A stretch of 64,000 nucleotides of DNA, from contig CM120641.1 in NCBI GenBank assembly GCA_051362555.1, positions 21,266,001-21,330,000 on the forward strand, in the 5' to 3' direction. Under the pieces are notes generated by a model. The model did not search any database. It was given only the letters and a program-made list of their open reading frames with translations, and was not told the DNA's origin. Both the position numbers and the translations under genes were made by a program. Below, piece by piece: positions 9,697-64,000 of the stretch (the first letter of the stretch is position 1; each line of letters opens with the position of its first letter). The stretch comes from Lingula anatina (Eukaryota > Animalia > Brachiopoda).

Positions 9697-10899
9697 TCAT
9701 AAACTTGTTGTGACGGAGGACTGGGGAGGACCGTATTTGTAATAATCACCGTCTGTAGTCATGTTAGGGTTGGCTTCTTTAGCAATATTCACCGCCGACG
9801 GCATTTGTCCATAATATGCATGCTGCATGCTTTCATACATTTTCATGTCCATTTTATTTTCAGCTGACATAATGTTACTTATTGAAAAAGGGTGATTGAA
9901 ATGTGGCCCGTTCATCTGACCGGGATGCATTTGCATCATACTCTGAGCGTCCATGTACGTCGCTGCGGGTCTCATGTCCGTGTGTGACTGTTGAACAACC
10001 TGGTGGTTCGGAGAATGGGAAGGAGGAATCGGTTCAGCCTTTGGGGGCAGTTCTGTGTTGTTTTCCCCTGTGTTGTTCGGCGTTTGTTGCGGGGGCTGCT
10101 GCGTCGTCTGCTGCGGTCCGAGTGGAGGGGGTTGTTCGTCGCCGCTATCGTCGTGGGAGTCCATTTTGGAATCGGGGGATCCCATACCATGTTTTGCCGC
10201 CGTACGTAGTGACTCTTTTTTCGGGTCCTTGAATCTTTTCTGTCTTCTCAAATAGCAGCCATTTTCAAACATGTTTCCAGAATCTGGATGGAGGGTCCAG
10301 TATGAGCCCTTCCCTGGCTTGTCGGGCGTGCGCGGTACCTTAACAAAACAGTCATTGAAGGATAAGCTATGGCGGATTGAATTCTGCCATCTTTGCTGAT
10401 TCTGACGATAGAACGGAAACAAGTCCATGATAAATTGATATATTTCACTGAGGGTACACATTTTGCTGGGGCTCTGTTGGATCGCCATTGTGATGAGGGA
10501 GATGTAGGAGTAAGGCGGCTTGGCGTGTGTATAACTACGTCTGTAAGTCTTTTCACGGGCTCTGTTAAGCGCTTGATGGTCCAGGCCAACGGGAGACATA
10601 GAGGGACTCATTCCGTTCATATGTCCCGCCATGGTACCCATACCCATGCTATTCATGCCTCCCATGGATCCCATGTTGGCCATGTTCATACCAGTCATGC
10701 CCATATGGCCCATGCCCATTGCGCCCATACCTGTACCTGGCATACCGCCCATGGAGCCCATGGTCTGCATGGTCTGCATAGTCTGCTGGGGATAACCCAT
10801 GCTTGTCATGCCCCCATAGGCTGTGTTCATCCCTGGCATAGAAGACATGGAGTACCCACTTGTACTCACGGTGTCGTAGGGGGATTTCGCAAGATTCAT
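9697..10899 (-). CDS. FOXA: Forkhead box A transcription factor, single coding exon, 400 aa
   Basis: Forkhead domain [22 protein letters not shown]...[20 protein letters not shown]...[29 protein letters not shown] is diagnostic of the FoxA class. Met/Gly-rich N-terminus and a C-terminal EH1-like [12 protein letters not shown] motif are also present. Confidence 0.97.
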
Positions 10900-11149
10900 G
10901 ACTTAAGGAACTGCTGCAGTCGCGGTTTTTCAACTGGAGGGAATTTACCTCTTTCGCTTTACTGCGCCGTGTACTGCAAGTCACCGCCGTCAAAGTTAGG
11001 ATCACAGATGGTCCCTTCAGCTGGTCTTGTATGGGTTTTCTCGGTTCTGTCCCAATCCAAGCATGAGTTGAGATAAGAAAGTAGTCCTAGTAGCACCCTG
11101 TGCTGACACAGTTTGATAGCTTGCGTGGAGCAAATACAGTGTAGAGTGG

Positions 11150-20059: not shown

Positions 20060-21163
20060 CTAATTCCCCTCAACTAGTTCCAACTTATAGGGTTTACTTA
20101 TAGCATAGGAAGGTTCGTCCACGATAACTACTTGGAGAGTTTCCTGTCCCAGTTTCAGCGTTTCTTTAACACCTATACCAAAGTCAACGCTTGTGCGGTG
20201 AACAAATGGAATTAAATCGCTCAAATCTTCGCATGGAATCACCCTCATGCGAGCGCTGGTTCCCACCTCTTTCTTGTGACTGTAGAAATACGTTTGGCAC
20301 TTGCTACTTTTGTACGTTTTCCTAAGTACGGCGTATGAATCATAGGGCGCGTTTGCGTATACGTTACCAAAAGGTCGTCGGTGTAAGGGAAAGACGTTAG
20401 ATTTCTTGTATATATAGTTACGAAATTCATACGAACTATCCCAAATATGGGTCTGATTCTCCTTGTAAAAATGAAGATCTAGATACGGCCACCGCCAGCT
20501 ATATTTAGTGGTGAAGTTCGAGTTCTTTGAAAAAAATTTCAAACGGGGACCAGCTTTATTGACGTAATATTCTGGAGCGAATTGGGACAGAGCTTTAAAT
20601 AATATTGCCTTCTCTTGAATATTGAACAGAAGATCCACGTCATCATCCCAAGGAATAAGATCATGATGCCTATAGGAACCCAGGAGACTACCGCCATACA
20701 GAAGATATGTGATATTATGTTTTGAGCAAGCCCGGTCTAGAACTGCTAACATTTCCATGAGCAATTCTTTTTCCGACTGCGACACTTGCTGTTGAAAGTA
20801 AAACAACGGATTACTCTTATCGTAAGACTCCCTAACATATCTCCTCAAAACGAGTTTTGGCATTGATTCTGATAATGATGAAGATGCATTGATTTTACCA
20901 TTGGCACGAGAGAATCTGTTCCCATTGAAAGAAGCCATGTGCAGAGATTTCACCAGCTTTAATATATCATTACTTTTGTGCTCTAATGCGCTCCGGCTCT
21001 CTTGGTGCAATTCCAAGGCTGTTTCCAAGGCTCTAATTCGGGCCATTATTCCCTCTTGCCCTACACGCAATGTCATAATAAATAACGCCACGGACCCAAA
21101 CAATAATAATAGAAAAAAGGCCGTCATGTATCCGTTGCCAGGGTTACGGAACATCTTTCTCAT
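20060..21163 (-). CDS. LicD/fukutin-FKRP family phosphotransferase, type II membrane protein, single coding exon, 367 aa
   Basis: N-terminal signal anchor (YMTAFFLLLLFGSVALFIMTL), helical stem, then the LicD nucleotidyltransferase-fold signature YLLYGGSLLGSYRHHDLIPWDDDVDL and a downstream WPYLDL motif. A splice acceptor (T10CTAATTTCAG) at 21201 indicates a 5' UTR intron, with a candidate GTGAGT donor at 21349. Confidence 0.88.
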   Translation of the reverse strand: MRKMFRNPGNGYMTAFFLLLLFGSVALFIMTLRVGQEGIMARIRALETALELHQESRSALEHKSNDILKLVKSLHMASFNGNRFSRANGKINASSSLSESMPKLVLRRYVRESYDKSNPLFYFQQQVSQSEKELLMEMLAVLDRACSKHNITYLLYGGSLLGSYRHHDLIPWDDDVDLLFNIQEKAILFKALSQFAPEYYVNKAGPRLKFFSKNSNFTTKYSWRWPYLDLHFYKENQTHIWDSSYEFRNYIYKKSNVFPLHRRPFGNVYANAPYDSYAVLRKTYKSSKCQTYFYSHKKEVGTSARMRVIPCEDLSDLIPFVHRTSVDFGIGVKETLKLGQETLQVVIVDEPSYAISKPYKLELVEGN

Positions 21164-21811
21164 TTTTTCCTTTATCGGGTCATTGGCACGGTGGGCTCAG
21201 CTGAAATTAGAAAAAAAAAACATATACCATGGGTTGAAAAAACAAAATGTAAGTACGCTCGTGTTGTAAAACCATGCCACTAATTCAGGTGCCTCGTATT
21301 TGTTGTGCTAAATTCGGGAGGCTATGACATTTTGTCTAATTCTACTCACGAACATTTCGAACCTGTCTAAATCCATCATCCTTATCGATGACCGCTGATC
21401 TTGGCCCAGTAGCAAAAGAAAACTGCGAGACGAATGGAGGCCACGACCGTAATGGGTCACGTGCCTCCCCACTCCCCTAGGCTTCGGAGGTACACGTACG
21501 CTGTACCCACTTTTGTCTTCCCTCCCTCACTCCCTCTCCCCCACTTAAATACAGTGTGAGAAACCTTACGTAAAATAATAAATAAATAAATAAGATAAAA
21601 TAAAAAAGATAGCTTTCGTCCATCGTTTACTATTTAATATTTTATCAACTGTTCGATCTTTGTCCCCGCTCAGGCAGTGCGACACTGAAACTTTCTGAAT
21701 GTTGCATTTTGAACGCCATGCATAATCGTGACCTCTTCTTAATGAAAATCACATGAAATGTCACCTATGGTGTTATTATGATGTTAAATTATATTTCAAC
21801 AGGTGGCTCCA

Positions 21812-21919: not shown

Positions 21920-22171
21920 GGCTTCGTTCACATGCAATGTCTATTTTCTATTTTCTATTTTCGGTATGTCTTATGATCACGGTCTGTGCACTGAATATCC
22001 CGCGGCGTAATTACTGGCAGCGCGAGCCAGTTACTATAAGTTACTATAAGTAACTGGCTCGCGCTGCCAGTAATTACGCGGCGGGATATTCAGTGCACAG
22101 ACCGTGATCATAAGACATACCGAAAATAGAAAATAGAAAATAGAAAATAGACATTGCATGTGAACGAAGCC
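21920..22171. mobile_element. Fully palindromic MITE, PIF/Harbinger (Tourist)-like
   Basis: Arms of about 115 bp are near-perfect inverted copies (GGCTTCGTTCACATGCAATG...CATTGCATGTGAACGAAGCC). The element is flanked by a TAA target duplication (21917-21919, 22172-22174). Confidence 0.85.
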
Positions 22172-50700: not shown

Positions 50701-53700
50701 GTAAGTCCCCCCATACAGTCCAAGGGACAATAAAGAAGACCTTTATCATCTTAACTCTCTCATTTGAGCAGATGCCACAAACAGGTTTAAAGCCTATATA
50801 TATATAAATTAAAGTGTGTGAGAAGAAATGTAAAAACAAAGTTCATCCAAATTTTGCAGGTTCTGAATAAAATATCTACTGTTTGACTGGAAGCAAAGAT
50901 AGCACTAGGACATGTGATATTTGATGAAAAAGATGCTTGTTTATACGGCTTTCAGTTTCACTTAAGGCATCCCTTGGCTTGAAACGTAATGTGGTTGTGG
51001 GCAGCTATCCTATCTTTAAATCTGCTGCATATTGTACTTCCCTGCATTAACCTTAACCATTGTTATTGTATTGCTTAATTTTGAACATTTACAAAGAAAG
51101 ATAGCAGCAGCAAAATGTTTTTAACAGTGTCTTGATATAATAGAAAAAAATCGATCAGTTTTCAGTGTTTCCACATATACTTCATTCAAAGTTAAACACT
51201 GTGGGTGCAGCACACAAGACCCAAGGGGAAGGGGTATAGGGAGACATGGGGGGGATGGGGGGGGGGGGGGGTCAATATTTGTACTCTTAGATGTGAGAAC
51301 CACCTCCTGTATCCCATTATGAATGGAATTGTTTTTTTTTTCCCTCTGTACCAATAGATTTGTCCTAATCAGTGTTTTTATTACAGGGAATTTTGAGATG
51401 CATGGTTTTGTTAGAATTTCCATTAGCAATGATATCATAGTAGTTTGTGACCGTATAATCCATTGTAACATGGTACCTTGCTCAGCATTTGTTATCTGAT
51501 ACATTCAGTGGTGACATCTTTTTAAGGTTCTCTTCGAACTTTTTGTATCATCTTGCACAAATCAACTAAAAACTGTTAATGCTTCTTTTTGCCACATACA
51601 CTTTTATTATTTATAGTGTGCACAAATTTGGGCACTTAAACTTTAATGCATAAATGATATTGAGAAAGATAATAAAGGAGTTGCATAGACTGAGTAAACC
51701 CAAAATATCTTAGGCAATAAGTTAATTTGTTCATTCCATAAATGTGATTGAAATAATAAAAGCAAAGCCACACTAAGCAAATCTTATTGCTTTGTATAGT
51801 TTGTACCATTGGTCTACTGTTGACCTCTAATTTCGTCTGTGTGTTGTTGAATGATTTTGACAGCGGATTTTATTTTTGTTTTTAGGTTTATGATCAAGTT
51901 AAAAAGAAGTATGACATATATGACAAGAAGTTTGGCAGATCTTTAACAGAAGTGGAGGTTCTAACCAAAGGTGAGAGTCAAACTTGGATTTATGTACTGA
52001 CAGTCAATGAAAACGCATCAGAAAACTTTCTTGTACTTTTTTACCAAGAATCGATTCCAACCATGTAAAGGAGTACAAATGCACTTGTTTGGTCATAAGA
52101 GAGTGGGCTGACCACTCAGATGTTTAAAATTTCCGCTTCAGTGATTTTGTGATCAGCTGTTACAAAATCGTGTGTTATCCTGTCTCGTGATTGGTGTGAA
52201 TTAATCAGGTTCAATATATGGTGATTAATTAAGCCTTTTTAAGCTAGTCACCAAATGCAGTATGACACATGACAAAAAACTTCAGTTATGCCACGTCTGA
52301 CACTGGAAGAGCGACTGCGGGCCCTGGGGATGTTGGAGGCTGGGTGGAACCAAAGAGATTTGATCATGTGACCTTGCATTTTAATGATCTTTTCTGACCT
52401 TTATTTCACCTTGTGTGACTGAATAATGGGTGATATTTCACATGAAAACTGTTATTTTCTTAATGTGCTGAAGGAACTTAAAATATTATTTGATAAATAA
52501 ATGATGCATTTTCATTGACTGTCAGTATATGTACAAAAAGTAAGATGACAAATACCCTCTCTTCAGAGGATTAGTTATCTGGCCTACCTAACTACCAGAT
52601 GTGGCACTGAAAGATCCAGAATTTACCATAGATTGGATCAGGTTACCGGTTTACAAGGTGTGTATCAGTACACGCTTGGAAGTGTCAGACACGGAACGAG
52701 CACCAGGCAAGAGGGTGGCACATCTGACACTTCGAAGAACGTAATGATACACACCTTGAAAAACGATAGAGTGATGCGATCAACGGTAAACTCTGGATCC
52801 TTCTGTGCTGCGTCTGGTAGTTGGGTAGGCCTGGTTATGTTGTTACCACTCAAACTTTTGAGGAACAATCCACATACAATGCATGTGAAAAAATTCCTGG
52901 AAATTATACAGGTTTATTATTCATCAAAGCATACGGTATGCAAAACTATATGTATGCCAGTTTTCTATTGTAAATGTTGAAATTTTACTGTCAAGTATGA
53001 AATTTATCAGTCTCCATCTCCATTGCAAGAGTGACTCTTTTTTACAACTAAAAAAAAATGGTTCATGAATTGCCTATCTGTGAACACTTTGATTATGGAT
53101 GCCTTGTTAATGAGAGGAAAGTTTTGAAATTTCCAGGAAAACATTCTTTGCTGTAACACCCAGTGTGTGCCTTTAGCGAAGTGTTTGTATTGATGGTATT
53201 CCAGTCTATCATTACACTCACTGTCCATTTAAAATGTTGCTCATTGGGTCAAACATTTTTTTCCACAAAACCAGCCCGTCTTATTACTTTGTCTTGTCTA
53301 ACCAGGTTTTGCAGCTTTTTTTGACAATGGTTATGGAATCCGGGTGGATGCTGTGAAAGCCATGATCAAAAAGTTGGAAGAAATAGAGAAGTGGTTTATG
53401 TCACCTTCAGGCCTATGTTTCTATGCAAGTTCACTGTTGCTAGTATATGATGGAGAGAGAACCAGCACAGGCAAAACAGATGAGGAAGTATCTGATGGCA
53501 TTGACTATATCAAAGAAACAGACTGTGCTTGTACCCCTGAAGTGGCTGGCTGTGTAAATCAGTGTCAGCTTGCCATGGACTTAGAATGCCCAGTTGCTGT
53601 GAAAATGATCGATTTTGCTCATGTCTTTCCTGCAAGTGGTCTGGATGAAAATTATTTAACAGGACTGCGCAGTTTAATAGCATATCTCCACAGAGTACTG

Positions 53701-59450: not shown

Positions 59451-62400
59451 ATGGCTTCTGTTAAGGACAACACACCTGGCCTGGGTAAGACTGATCTGAA
59501 ACTGGTCACTCCAGCAGTGACCAGGGGGGGCATCACACACATAGATGATGTGGGTCATGGAAAAGTGCATGATGAGGAGCATCATGAGGATGAATTCAAA
59601 ATTAGCCAAAAAGTAAGTGTTTTAGGTACAAATTGACTACTGGTGAGATAAAAGATTGTTAGAAATTTCCTTTTACCAATGTATGAAAATGTGATACTCT
59701 GACCACTATATTTGCCAGGCTTGACAGCCATTTGCTGTTATCAACAATATAATGATCAGAAGAACATTAATGATTAGTCAGTTGAGTTGCAAGCACAAAA
59801 TCTAAACTTGTTCATAAAGTGTCTTTATTGTACTTGGTATGCATTATTCATAACCTTCAGTTGTTTATCTGTTCTAATGGCACAATTTTTCAGGTGTCAA
59901 ATAAGTATAAAATTTTCACCTCCTTGACTGCGGGTGCTGTTGCTGGTGCTGTTGCAAAGACAACCATAGCCCCTTTGGACAGGACAAAAATAAACTTTCA
60001 AAGTTAGTTGCTTTGTGATATTGTTTTGCCTTCAAAGAATCTATAACCTCTCTCTGTCTGTCTGTCTGTGTCTGTATATAATTATCAAGTTCTCCAAATT
60101 AGTCAATCTACACAAAAAAATCTGACAAAAAATGATGCCAGAAATGTAGAGTAACAGTGTAGATTTTAATCATCGGTATAAATTTTTACTTCCAGTCTCA
60201 CAGACTCCATATTCCTACAAAGGAGCTTTCTTATTTATAAAGAATACTGTGAAGAATGAGGGGTTCTTCACGCTGTGGCGGGGTAATTCTGCAACCATGG
60301 CCAGGATTATCCCCTATGCTGCAATACAGTATGCTGCCCATGAACAGTGGAAACGATTGCTCAATCCAGAAAACAATAGGTAATGATGATCCAGTAAGGC
60401 AGAAAAGTATCAATCTAAACTTTGTGGTTATTTAAACTTCAAAAGCAAGAACTGTATAAAATTAAGACTTCAACTAATTTAACTCCTCACTTATTCTGAT
60501 GTATTACTTTTTCATGATTTATCACTTTTAGTTATTCATAAAAATGTGATTCACATAAACTCGATTTTCACTTATAAATCAATACACCTTAAGTGTTGCT
60601 TACACAGCATTTTTTCTGAAATTTATTTACTCATTTTCATTGTTTTTAATGAGTAATTACAATATCTTTGTTGAAAAACGTTTACCTTTTTGTTATACAC
60701 CTTTGAAATACAAATTTTAGATTATTGCATAATGTTAAAAAAAGCAGTGGACTTGTTTTGTTGACCACATTAATGAAACTCTTAATACATGAATTAAATT
60801 TTTTTTTAGAAGCATGCCTAGAAGTCTTCCGCCTGGCAGGCGATTTGTAGCAGGCTCTTTAGCAGGGATGACTTCTGTGGCTGCGACATACCCTTTAGAC
60901 ATGGTCAGGGCTCGAATGGCTGTCACGCTCAAATGCAGGTAGAACTTAACATTTGTAGTTGTGACCTTGACTGAAAAAAATCCTGGAGTACTTTTGGGCA
61001 ACTGATAGTGATAAATGTGGGGAAATGCATGCTGTGTTTGTACATTGTTGATAAAATGACTTGGAAGTCATGGGCTTTCAGAAGTTATTTTGCTATAAAG
61101 GAACTGTAACATTTTGTATGAAAATATGTTTGGGTTTTCTATTAAGATGTGGATTTGGTTTGTAGATACACTTGATATCTCAGTTTTACATGTCTGATTA
61201 AAAATGATGCCAAATAGATAACATTCACATACAATTTTTAAATATTTTTAAATTGAAAACCAAAAGTCACAAGATTCATCATAAATGATAATTTATTTGT
61301 TTTTAAAACTCTCGGGTATAAATATCACATTACTTGTATTACCCGAGCACATTCTTATATTCTTTTGAAAATCACCTCTAGGTATAAAAGCCTGTGGGAA
61401 GTTTTCTTCAAAATTTACCGAGAAGAAGGTATCCTCACATTATACAGAGGTTTCATACCTTCCTTTCTGGGAGCAGTTCCTTACTTAGGCACAAGCTTCT
61501 TTACTTATGAAACATGCAAGAAATTACTCTACGGTAAGAAATGATGATCTTTTCCAGTGTTGCGCAAATCAGTTGCTTTTGCCTGTGTGATTCAAGTCCT
61601 TGTCATCTCTTCCACTCCCCTCACTCATGAACTAACTGTTCTGTTCCATTTGTTTCAAACATGCAAATCAAACAGCAAAAAAGTTTTGTTTCCCCCGTAC
61701 TTACCCCAGTTTGAGCTTCTCTCTTTTAATGTGCTGGCACAGTAGTACCTGAACAAAGTGCAATCTTCACCCCTGTCCAGGTGCAGTTACTCAGCACACA
61801 AGATTTTCCTTGATATATGAACTGTGGCAGTTTGTCTGAACATTTGCCAGTTTAGGCTGGCTAGTTTGTCACGTTTGTCCCACCATATAAAAAAATTGAC
61901 TCTGAAAATTGCAGCAACAGAACTCGAGTTTCAATAGGAAACCAAGCACCCCCTGCATACTTTTCAAAATTCAGTGCCAGGCAATGCAGCTGATTTGCTT
62001 TAATTTTGGTAAAGTCTTTTCATCAGTACAGCCCTTCATTTCAGGTATCACAGTCTTTTTGAGGTGATTGTGAAAATTTACCAGGAAGAAGGAATCCGAA
62101 CTCTTTACAGAGGGTTTACGCCTACTGTACTAGGCTCAATTCCTTACTCAGGAACAAGTTTCTTTACATATGAAACAATGAAGAAAAATTATTTTGGTAA
62201 GAGTACCAGCCTGCGGCTTTGAGCTTGATGTACAAATAACATGTGATTGTAGTCCTTTACACAGGCATGAGATTGATATTTTTGTCTGAAAAATTGGAAA
62301 CAAGTTGGCAACGTAACTGCCCAAAAAGTTAAGTGGAAACATTAGTAAATTTGGAAAAATCTCATGTCTGCTCAAGAAACCTCACTGCAGTGGAAAATTT

Positions 62401-64000
62401 GAATTCGCTCCCTGCTAATGACTAACTAGATTATAAATAGTTAGTACAGGTTTCTTTGTAATTTTTGTTTTACTAAATATCAGTGTGCTTTTGAATCTGA
62501 ATTATGCACAGGCTGTGAAATGTCTTTGGTTGCACCTCATATTATATATGTTATTGTCCCTAACATATGTATTTATCCTCCTTTACACATTAAGACTATT
62601 TGGTGCATACTTATTTAATGTTTTATCCAGGCACAAAGTCTGCATAGGAACCATTTAGTCTCTGTGCTTGATAAAGAACTAACCTAATCAATTAATCCTA
62701 GGTGGTAAAGGTTTACAAGGTGTTACAGCATGAAGCCTATGTGGTCTTTAATATGAATGGTGTGCAGGGATTAAATGTTTCTGCTTATTGCACTTTATAT
62801 CATTTTACTTGCTCCTTATTTCAGTGTTCATTTCATTTTGCTGAAATGTCATAATGAATGTTTAGAGGCATCTCCATTTTATGTCAACCAATTATTGTTG
62901 GACAAGTTGAATATTTAAATGATGTGGTTACATTAATGTGTTCGTCCTGCAGTGGGGAAAGGGACAAACTTTGGGAAACCAACTGAATCAAACATTATTT
63001 GGGAACTTAATTCTCTCTTTGGTGATTTTTGACATCATTTCTTTTTAATCAGCATTTTGTAGTTGGACTTTAAGGGAATGTGTTTTCAAAGGTTTTTAAA
63101 AACATTTTACATTATTAAGCATGAAGGCATAGGGTGCTGCCTTTGGATCCCATAACTACTATGCAATATCATAATGTTTTACAGTTAATATGCAGATCAT
63201 CTTCACTGAATTGAATACCAAGGTTTTTGTGACAGTGCCAATTTGCTTGTAAATTCCCCCCGAGTAGCCCTCCCTTATATAAAAGTCAAGTTTTGAGTGG
63301 TTTGTTTTACAGAATACTCTGGTGGCAAAGATCCATCCGCCTACCAGAGGCTGTGTTTTGGTGCCCTGGCAGGTCTGTGCGGCCAGTCTGCCTCTTACCC
63401 TCTGGACATTGTGCGAAGGAGGATGCAAACTGCTGGTAAGGAACATTTGGTTTGGCAAAAAGAGATTGCCCAAAATGATCAAGTTCCGACTAAAAAGTCA
63501 TAATTTAAAAATTCGAGGTGACACAAGGAAACTCACAGGACAAAAACATCTTGAAATATGATATCATGACATATTTATTTTTGTGGAATTTCTTTGTGGT
63601 GTCTCACCATTATCTGTGCAGTATTCTTGGGGGGAAAAAAATCCCTACAGTTTGTGATCAGTGCAGTTTTTCTCATGGAACACTTCTTGAAATACTGATT
63701 TATTTTATCAGTAAATGTCAGTGGAGCATGATCCAGATGCTAATTTGCTAGTAAATAAGAACTTTAAGTAATTTACTTTGCTTTGGCTACATAGTTCATG
63801 TTTTTTTTTAGGTATAAACTGTCAGTATCTGTTTAATTTTTTAGGTGTCACTGGCAAAAGTAGTGAATACACAGGTATTATTAGAACAATGAGGAAAGTG
63901 GTCCAGGCAGAGGGAGTGATAGGGGGCCTTTACAAGGGACTTTCCATGAACTGGATAAAAGGACCCATTGCAGTGGGAATAAGTTTTACAACTTTTGAGA
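59451..64000 (+). CDS. SLC25A42: Mitochondrial coenzyme A carrier SLC25A42, 3' partial, coding exon 5 duplicated
   Basis: Perfect Kozak GCCACCATGG. Exons 59451-59612, 59894-60002, 60196-60379, 60810-60938, [61382-61533 or 62045-62196], 63313-63435 and 63845->64000. Carrier signatures PLDRTK, PLDMVR and PLDIVR, plus the SLC25A42-type [20 protein letters not shown] and [24 protein letters not shown]. Confidence 0.93.
61382..61533 (+). CDS. SLC25A42: SLC25A42 alternative exon 5a (mutually exclusive)
   Basis: 152 nt, CTCTAG acceptor and GTAAGA donor, phase 2 to 1. Encodes [50 protein letters not shown]. Confidence 0.88.
62045..62196 (+). CDS. SLC25A42: SLC25A42 alternative exon 5b (mutually exclusive)
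   Basis: 152 nt, TTTCAG acceptor and GTAAGA donor, phase 2 to 1. Encodes [50 protein letters not shown]. Confidence 0.88.

What the first reader, a model, noticed from the sequence alone, without database searches (positions are those of the whole stretch)
61564..62267. Docking site with two competing selectors that could enforce SLC25A42 5a/5b exclusivity
Seen: a segment 30 nt after the 5a donor (61564-61590) can pair in two ways. One is with 61978-61998 just upstream of 5b (GCAAATCAGTTGC-TT-TTGCCTG with CAGGCAA-T-GCAGCTGATTTGC, 20 bp, one G-U). The other is with 62257-62267 downstream of 5b (TGCCTGTGTGA with TTACACAGGCA, 11 bp). The two pairings overlap and cannot coexist. The first buries a CTGAT branch candidate and leaves about 35 unpaired nt between the 5a donor and the next branch candidate (TTAAT, about 62003), too short for 5a-to-5b splicing. 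The second loops out 5b. Known: steric hindrance combined with RNA structure, and docking/selector competition, are established for insect Dscam. Inference: the same logic evolved independently in a metabolic carrier gene.
Basis: partly seen in the sequence, partly recalled or inferred. Interest (0 to 1): 0.8.

Follow-up and report, generated by a model that had tools for sequence, protein, structure and literature searches.

The report
Intron stem between twin carrier exons
In an invertebrate gene for a mitochondrial coenzyme A carrier, two copies of one exon are each used singly in sequenced RNA, and a strong base-paired stem predicted in the intron between them likely stops them being joined; this would be a new example of a known kind of splicing control, while the proposed second, competing pairing is weak.

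Summary
Partly confirmed. The gene is a lophotrochozoan SLC25A42 with tandem 152-nt exons 5a and 5b. Both single-exon isoforms are already in NCBI. RNA reads show 4-5b (20), 4-5a (6) and 5b-6 (26) joints and no 5a-5b joint, at low depth. Double inclusion would create an early stop, so decay alone could hide it. Stem 1 (20 bp) is far beyond chance (0 of 400 shuffles) and is predicted to extend over the 5b branch region. The second pairing (11 bp) is marginal alone (p 0.03-0.06), 11-12 kcal/mol worse in context, overlaps only 6 bp of stem 1 and has a stronger local competitor. A strict two-state switch is therefore unlikely; stem 1 is better read as a constitutive lock. New here: the second pairing looks like the two arms of one ancestral hairpin split by the duplication (13 of 15 identity in register, 0 of 20000), and a third upstream partner gives an ATE1-like layout. 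No second species was available, so covariation is untested. The scan has noted this kind of pairing in other genomes. Verdict: new member of a known kind.

The parts
60810..60938 (+).
   Evidence: matches P0001/P0121; RNA depth and joints
60996..61006 (+). Third, upstream partner of the dock (pairs 61568-78, 11 bp, two G-U); would loop out 5a; ATE1 R1-like position; weak
   Evidence: 10 of 500 shuffles with no loop, 24 of 500 with one loop; rank 10 among helices
61382..61533 (+). Exon 5a, 152 nt, minor and derived copy; encodes residues 196-245 including helix H4
   Evidence: P0001; 6 exon-4 joints and 5 loose ends into exon 6; F223 and L230 in 0 of 141 relatives
61542..61562 (+). Predicted outward extension of stem 1, 5' strand (pairs 62001-62025)
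   Evidence: pair probabilities about 0.7-1.0; 35 of 1000 anchored shuffles
61564..61590 (+). Dock: 61564-76 helix A, 61579-85 helix B, 61580-90 helix C, 61586-90 toehold left free by stem 1
   Evidence: single copy in window
61586..61600 (+). Block homologous to 62242-62256 (13 of 15); likely relic loop of an ancestral hairpin after 5a
61978..61998 (+). Selector 1, 3' strand of stem 1; contains CTGAT branch candidate
62001..62025 (+). 5b branch region (candidates A62003 and, likelier, A62022); 3' strand of the predicted extension
   Evidence: branch sites not mapped experimentally
62045..62196 (+). Exon 5b, 152 nt, major and ancestral-like copy
   Evidence: P0121; 20 upstream and 26 downstream joints; closer to relatives
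62242..62256 (+). Paralogous block after 5b: 5 nt of the 5' arm plus the 10-nt relic loop
62257..62267 (+). Selector 2, 3' strand of helix C
62358..62370 (+). Local competitor of selector 2 (pairs 62262-74, 13 bp, stacking -21.9 against -20.8 for helix C)
63313..63435 (+). Downstream constitutive exon 6

Best explanation
Exons 5a and 5b are tandem copies that RNA reads show used one at a time, and the 20-bp stem predicted across the intron between them likely acts as a constitutive lock that stops 5a being spliced to 5b, with decay of frameshifted messages as a probable backup. Shown: exon bounds, both isoforms, equal length and phase, the early stop on double inclusion, and complementarity beyond chance. 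Inferred: stem 1, with its weak outward extension, forms in nearly every transcript once 61998 is made. It would bring the 5a donor within about 22-53 nt of the 5b branch site, too close for U1 and U2 to assemble on this intron, while the exon 4 donor could still reach 5b once U2 opens the weak outer helices. 5b would then be the default, and 5a the minor route 4-5a-6. Exon choice would be nudged, not switched, by weaker pairings. Helix C could enter by the free 61586-90 toehold and displace helix B only, looping 5b out while helix A stays. The upstream partner 60996-61006 could transiently loop 5a out before selector 1 is made. Helix C likely arose when an exon plus a downstream hairpin was duplicated and each copy kept a different arm.
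For: Exclusive use: 4-5b 20 reads, 4-5a 6, 5b-6 26, and 5 of 5 loose ends at the 5a donor run into exon 6; no 5a-5b or 4-6 joint was listed in 4 runs from 3 studies. Stem 1: 0 of 400 shuffles; pair probability 0.89-1.0. Extension: 35 of 1000. A second haplotype (X7) carries 37 substitutions and 6 indels in 1387 intronic nt but none in the 108 nt of extended stem plus selector 2 (expected chance 0.03), and its 7-nt deletion stops 8 nt short of selector 1. Strong helices between exons 4 and 6 are modestly enriched on the transcribed strand: 7 at -20.8 or better against 1.4 expected and 0 on the other strand; corrected p about 0.01-0.02. Relic register 13 of 15, 0 of 20000. No repeat pile-up over the stem arms in DNA runs (1 and 4 contigs laid).
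Against: No second species, so no covariation. Polymorphism over the 59-nt core elements alone is not significant (0.15); intron ends are often conserved anyway; X5's private changes and 18 of X7's were not shown. Depth is low (15-109 reads per run) and joints need 3 reads, so a few percent double inclusion is not excluded. Double inclusion gives a stop at 62065, so steady-state exclusivity does not need structure. With the core stem only, 53 nt to A62022 is borderline. If the extension is stable, the 5b branch is buried, which sits badly with 5b being major. Helix C is disfavoured even as a pseudoknot: about 5-11 kcal/mol by my estimate with a recalled penalty of 7-9. The relic register was found after looking.
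Confidence: 0.5

Rival explanations
1. Exclusivity comes from splice-site competition, protein regulators and nonsense-mediated decay; the stems are by-products or only shorten the intron.
For: 152 is not a multiple of 3; 4-5a-5b-6 has a stop at 62065, about 130 nt before the next junction. NMD is a listed cause of exclusivity (PMC6071210 introduction). Core elements are not significantly depleted of variants (0.15).
Against: A 20-bp stem at about 6 sd beyond shuffles sits exactly between the 5a donor and the 5b branch region; strand-biased helix excess.
Confidence: 0.2
2. ATE1-type competition: stem 1 masks the 5b branch region and yields 5a, the upstream partner 60996-61006 captures the dock, loops out 5a and yields 5b, and helix C sets the ratio.
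For: Same order of elements as ATE1 R1/R3/R4 plus R2/R5 (PMC7797038 section 14). The upstream partner resembles selector 1 and is made first. 10 of 500 shuffles. The extension buries both branch candidates.
Against: The upstream helix is much weaker than stem 1 (-13.8 against -30.2 on the same scale) yet would have to win most of the time; 24 of 500 with one loop allowed; it lies 375 nt from the 5a acceptor rather than on it.
Confidence: 0.15
3. One reading: the dock alternates strictly between selector 1 and selector 2, and these two states set the exon.
For: Both pairings exist and overlap. Helix C is notable within 150 nt of the 5b donor (2 of 500 with no loop, 11 of 500 with one) and carries a duplication footprint.
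Against: C-only state 10.9-12.5 kcal/mol worse; overlap only 6 bp; stronger local partner for selector 2; 5 of 111 unrelated stretches match the dock as well.
Confidence: 0.12
4. The stem is the terminal inverted repeat of a decayed transposon, or the closing stem of an intronic C/D RNA (a perfect C box at 61541, CTGA at 61990).
For: Arms enclose about 390 nt; C and D box motifs are present (motif definitions recalled).
Against: No second copy in the window; no repeat pile-up in DNA runs; no Rfam match near a gathering score (3 matches, E 0.35-1.8); the C box is 7 nt from the donor, the CTGA is paired inside helix A, and the enclosed part varies between haplotypes.
Confidence: 0.03

Closest known systems
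Human ATE1 exons 7a/7b, elements R1-R5 (PMC7797038; abstract, passages and section 14 read)
   Same: Two exclusive exons; an element between them pairs with a site just upstream of the second exon, with a similar site upstream of the first, and an element between the exons pairs downstream of the second; pseudoknot possible; separate roles for exclusivity and ratio.
   Different: ATE1 elements are conserved across vertebrates and tested by mutation; R1 and R4 sit on the 3' splice sites; R5 is 30 kb away. Here one 27-nt dock carries all three pairings, the upstream partner is weak and far from the 5a acceptor, and nothing is tested.
Insect Dscam exon 17, steric hindrance plus RNA structure (Yue 2013; paper not held; title seen in a reference list; content recalled)
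   Same: Two exons; a stem in the intervening intron is recalled to shorten the donor-to-branch distance.
   Different: Different gene and phylum; branch site unmapped here; exons are not frame-neutral, so NMD can contribute.
Downstream docking-site systems (14-3-3zeta, Mhc, MRP1) and srp bidirectional pairing (PMC6071210 parts 1 and 3 of 5; PMC4691838 abstract and passages)
   Same: A pairing from just after the first exon to just after the last loops the last exon out (helix C); upstream and downstream pairings coexist.
   Different: There the docking site lies in a flanking intron and selectors sit at equivalent positions beside each exon. Here the shared site is in the internal intron and its strongest partner is in the same intron.
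Ivanov-Pervouchine duplication model for competing structures (PMC6071210 discussion)
   Same: Intron sequence duplicated with the exon supplies the complementary elements.
   Different: Their model duplicates one arm of a stem-loop. Here the footprint suggests that a whole hairpin was duplicated and each copy kept a different arm.
Distant-branch-point exclusivity, e.g. OGDH 4a/4b (PMC7969005 passages)
   Same: Steric limit of about 50 nt between donor and branch site in a mitochondrial metabolic gene.
   Different: Needs a branch site near the donor and a long AG-free zone; this intron has 30 AGs, so only folding could shorten the distance.
SLC25A42 / Drosophila dPCoAC carriers (PMC7504413 passages) and the alternatively spliced mitochondrial phosphate carrier (mentioned in PMC13385207; its exons 3A/3B recalled)
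   Same: Protein family; alternative isoforms within a mitochondrial carrier.
   Different: No duplicated H4 exon was seen in isoform sets of 10 relatives' clusters; the duplication looks lineage-specific, though relatives' introns were not seen.

Membership tests
Tandem duplicated mutually exclusive exons | Homologous, same length and phase | tested here: met
   152 nt each, 105 of 152 identical, 34 of 50 residues the same
Tandem duplicated mutually exclusive exons | Each spliced singly between the same flanking exons; never both, never neither | tested here: met
   low depth, 3-read listing threshold, NMD not blocked
Docking-site/selector competing RNA structure | One site complementary to two or more partners with overlapping footprints | tested here: met
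   B and C overlap at 61580-85; the upstream partner overlaps A
Docking-site/selector competing RNA structure | Alternative pairings of comparable stability | tested here: not met
   C-only state 10.9-12.5 kcal/mol worse; prediction only, kinetics and proteins not modelled
Docking-site/selector competing RNA structure | One selector per exon at equivalent positions, docking site in a flanking intron | tested here: not met
   shared site lies in the internal intron; partners are not at paralogous positions
Docking-site/selector competing RNA structure | Conservation with compensatory changes across species | tested here: inconclusive
   no orthologous intron obtained; one conspecific haplotype has no change in the elements, p 0.15 core, 0.03 extended
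Docking-site/selector competing RNA structure | Disruptive and compensatory mutations change and restore exon choice | not testable with these tools
   needs minigenes
Steric hindrance aided by RNA structure (Dscam exon 17 type) | Stem in the intervening intron brings the donor-branch distance below about 50 nt | tested here: inconclusive
   34 nt to A62003, 53 nt to the likelier A62022 with the core stem, about 22 nt with most of the extension; branch site unmapped; threshold from vertebrates
Distant branch point exclusivity (OGDH type) | Branch site within about 50 nt of the donor followed by a long AG-free zone | tested here: not met
   nearest CTCAC and CTAAC candidates at 61620 and 61632; 30 AGs in the intron
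NMD-enforced exclusivity | Double inclusion shifts the frame and gives a stop well upstream of a later junction | tested here: met
   stop at 62065; actual decay not tested
SLC25A42 mitochondrial CoA carriers | Best hits are SLC25A42 orthologues; carrier family | tested here: met
   transport activity not tested

The most novel reading that the evidence does not exclude
One 27-nt intronic dock runs a three-partner toehold switch born from a split hairpin. The duplication copied exon 5 with a hairpin behind it; 5a kept the left arm and 5b the right, so the old local hairpin became a long-range loop around 5b, with the old loop still readable in both copies. Helix A stays as a lock while helices B and C exchange by strand displacement, choosing between a standard CoA carrier and a variant with a remodelled substrate-contact helix H4 (F223, L230). 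This would be a directly visible case of how a competing splice structure arises, by a route not among the models in the paper I read.
Probability: 0.2. Interest if true: 0.65.

Novelty: new member of a known kind. Interest (0 to 1): 0.4.

Why it matters
Structure-guided exclusive splicing is known from insects and from human ATE1, so another case is expected rather than surprising; a metabolic carrier in a lophotrochozoan widens its range. Two things add value. The split-hairpin footprint gives a small (1.4 kb), minigene-sized test of how such pairings arise after exon duplication. The derived exon rewrites the carrier's H4 helix around contact point II, so the two isoforms may differ in substrate preference or kinetics (CoA, dephospho-CoA, ADP, PAP), which is testable in liposomes. 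Searches for SLC25A42 with mutually exclusive exons (1 paper, unrelated by title and abstract start), SLC25A42 with alternative splicing (11 papers, listing seen, two read in passages) and brachiopod with mutually exclusive exons (1 database paper, listing only) showed no description of this case; subscription journals and supplements were not seen.

Tried and rejected
No whole genome is held, so no genome-wide repeat search or intron-length survey. The metagenome scan gave 80 kept loci of 335, which look mostly like transcripts or distant eukaryotes; 41 of 80 hit exon 5 at 50 bits or more and 0 of 80 had two such hits, which says little about animal introns. DNA runs X10 and X11 gave only 35-37 nt spurious pieces; 4 of 11 DNA-type runs and 4 of 9 RNA runs listed were laid. 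Exon-only protein searches returned only the window's own protein among 3 candidates, which is weak evidence. Isoform sets in 10 clusters of relatives differ at the ends, not in the exon 5 stretch. A duplex statistic with unlimited loops separated stem 1 poorly (21 of 500). Two scripts returned nothing. Pairing of the 5a acceptor region (61370-78) with exon 5b (62061-69): 9 of 300 and 19 of 300 shuffles, and the common allele at 62069 breaks its end pair; not adopted. Distant branch point, transposon ends and C/D RNA rejected. Helix-count enrichment depends on the cut-off: not significant at -23.5 or -17.9. Yue 2013 and Yue 2017 could not be read. No earlier notes on this genome.

Full report
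Gene and exons. The region holds exons at 60810-60938, 61382-61533 (5a), 62045-62196 (5b), 63313-63435 and from 63845, all with GT-AG ends. The database holds two 356-aa proteins from one contig, P0001 with 5a and P0121 with 5b, both from NCBI among other sources; they differ at 16 positions between residues 197 and 245. The best relatives are SLC25A42 proteins of molluscs, annelids and nemerteans, none above 68% identity. The host is therefore a lophotrochozoan without a close relative in that collection; a brachiopod is my guess and was not tested. The exons are 105 of 152 nt identical, with 23 of 50 third positions identical, so the duplication is not recent. No relative's isoform set differed in this stretch (10 clusters), so the duplication looks lineage-specific, although relatives' genomic introns were not seen.

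Splicing. Four of nine listed RNA runs (3 studies; 6-25% of each run read) were laid on 60780-63480. Joints: exon 4 to 5b 10, 2, 3 and 5 reads; exon 4 to 5a 5, 0, 1 and 0; 5b to exon 6 15, 6, 3 and 2. The 5a-6 junction appears as loose ends in X12: 5 reads behind 61533, all reading into exon 6. No 5a-5b and no 4-6 joint was listed, with a threshold of 3 reads. So both exons are used singly and 5b is the major form (20 of 26). Double inclusion gives a stop at 62065 and skipping both gives one at 63861. Decay could therefore hide double inclusion; for skipping it depends on a junction beyond the window.

Stem 1. With at most one loop, no shuffle of 400 reaches it, and only 2 of 245 window stretches do, both long near-perfect inverted repeats. 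A looser statistic was weaker (21 of 500). In a partition function over 61500-62300 both helices have probability 0.89-1.0, and four short helices extend the stem outward from 61542-62 to 62001-25 with probability about 0.7-1.0; the extension beats 965 of 1000 anchored shuffles. The dock has no second copy in the window, DNA contigs do not pile up on it and Rfam has nothing near threshold.

Steric argument. Three AGs lie between it and the acceptor used, while A62022 is followed by AGs only 4 and 9 nt away and then the true one, which fits the rule that AGs more than about 8-12 nt from the branch are selected (PMC7969005 passages). From the donor to A62022 there are 53 unpaired nt with the core stem, close to the ~50 nt threshold quoted there for vertebrates, and about 22 nt if all but the outermost helix of the extension holds. 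The steric model survives, but depends on the extension.

Helix C. It is real in sequence but marginal: 13 and 28 of 500 shuffles of the 1116-nt intron, 2 and 11 of 500 for its first 150 nt, 5 of 111 unrelated stretches. Forcing it in a nested fold costs 10.9 kcal/mol, or 12.5 when its local competitor 62358-70 is included. It overlaps only helix B, and 61586-90 is left free by stem 1 as a toehold, so an A+C pseudoknot is the natural alternative; my rough estimate still puts it 5-11 kcal/mol above A+B (recalled penalty). It could matter kinetically, in the roughly 100 nt before the competitor is transcribed, or with protein help. PMC4691838 (passages) discusses such pseudoknots for srp and prefers competition.

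Origin of helix C. The introns after 5a and 5b do not align except for one block, TGTGATTCAAGTCCT (61586-600) and TGTGATTGTAGTCCT (62242-56); as a plain local alignment this is modest (48 of 2000). Its register is what stands out: the 5' arm of helix C ends just before the last 10 nt of the first block, and the 3' arm begins just after the same 10 nt of the second. No shuffle of 20000 gave such a register over loop lengths 4-40, and 55 of 20000 did for the 10 nt alone. The simplest reading is one ancestral 11-bp hairpin with a 10-nt loop, duplicated with the exon, each copy keeping one full arm. This was found after looking and rests on one species. It differs from the one-arm duplication model in PMC6071210 (parts 1 and 3 of 5 read).

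Other partners. The dock's 5' half also pairs with 60996-61006 upstream of 5a (10 and 24 of 500), which recalls ATE1 (PMC7797038). Between exons 4 and 6 seven uninterrupted helices reach -20.8 against 1.4 expected (0 of 320) and none on the opposite strand. The cut-off was chosen after the fact; rank-corrected p is about 0.01 and the top-5 and top-10 means give 0.019 and 0.012.

Conservation. No second species was reached. Run X7 covers 60940-63000 in one contig. Its listed changes run in order to 62630, which I take as complete to that point (inferred; 39 substitution rows and 4 indel rows were not shown). In 1387 intronic nt it has 37 substitutions and 6 indels, none in the 59-nt core (chance 0.15), the 108-nt extended set (0.03) or a 144-nt set with all elements (0.009, chosen after the fact). 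Nearness to splice sites confounds this.

Protein. The exon encodes the stretch that aligns with helix H4 of ADP/ATP carriers, where contact point II lies (PMC13385207 passages; the exact position is my inference from the alignment). 5b resembles relatives; 5a has S222 (3 of 141), F223 (0 of 141), A226 (9 of 141), L230 (0 of 141) and C240 (1 of 141), among 141 of 147 relatives aligned without gaps. Orthologues differ in CoA versus dephospho-CoA preference (PMC7504413 passages), so a functional difference is plausible but untested.

Verdict. The exon pair is real and already annotated; stem 1 is very likely a real RNA structure; its role as a lock is about even odds; the strict two-selector switch is unlikely. 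Earlier notes of this scan describe the same kind of pairing in other animals (unchecked). New member of a known kind, interest 0.4.

Noticed in passing
window 61951-61961 with 62759-62769: A second helix that would loop out 5b (11 bp, stacking -22.5), itself competing with a local hairpin 62652-67 with 62762-77; same pattern as helix C and its local competitor.
   Followed up: partly
window 62380-62390 with 62947-62957: 11-bp helix that would shorten the 5b-6 intron by about 570 nt; haplotype X7 changes 62382 so that a G-U pair becomes G-C. One event only.
   Followed up: partly
window 61104-61118 with 62714-62728: 15-bp helix that would enclose both alternative exons.
   Followed up: no
window 61311-61318 with 61340-61347: Perfect 8-bp hairpin 34 nt before the 5a acceptor; two X7 changes fall in its loop, none in the arms.
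   Followed up: partly
window 61363-61378 with 62061-62076: 5a acceptor region is complementary to the start of exon 5b; marginal, and a common allele breaks one pair.
   Followed up: yes
window 61382-61533: 5a share seems to differ between RNA runs (5 of 15 exon-4 joints in X12, 0 of 7 in X15 plus X16), hinting at tissue or stage control; counts are small.
   Followed up: no
window 61630-61660: ACTAAC followed by a 20-nt pyrimidine run inside the loop of stem 1 looks like an unused branch site and tract; no joint uses it.
   Followed up: partly
window 9697-10902 (-): Long single ORF of a FoxA-type forkhead protein (family named from recall of the domain).
   Followed up: no
window about 21950-22130 and 52580-52830: Long near-perfect inverted repeats, probably transposon-derived.
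   Followed up: no
window 20060-21196 (-): 378-codon intronless ORF with a DDDVD motif, resembling LicD/fukutin-type proteins (resemblance recalled, not searched).
   Followed up: no
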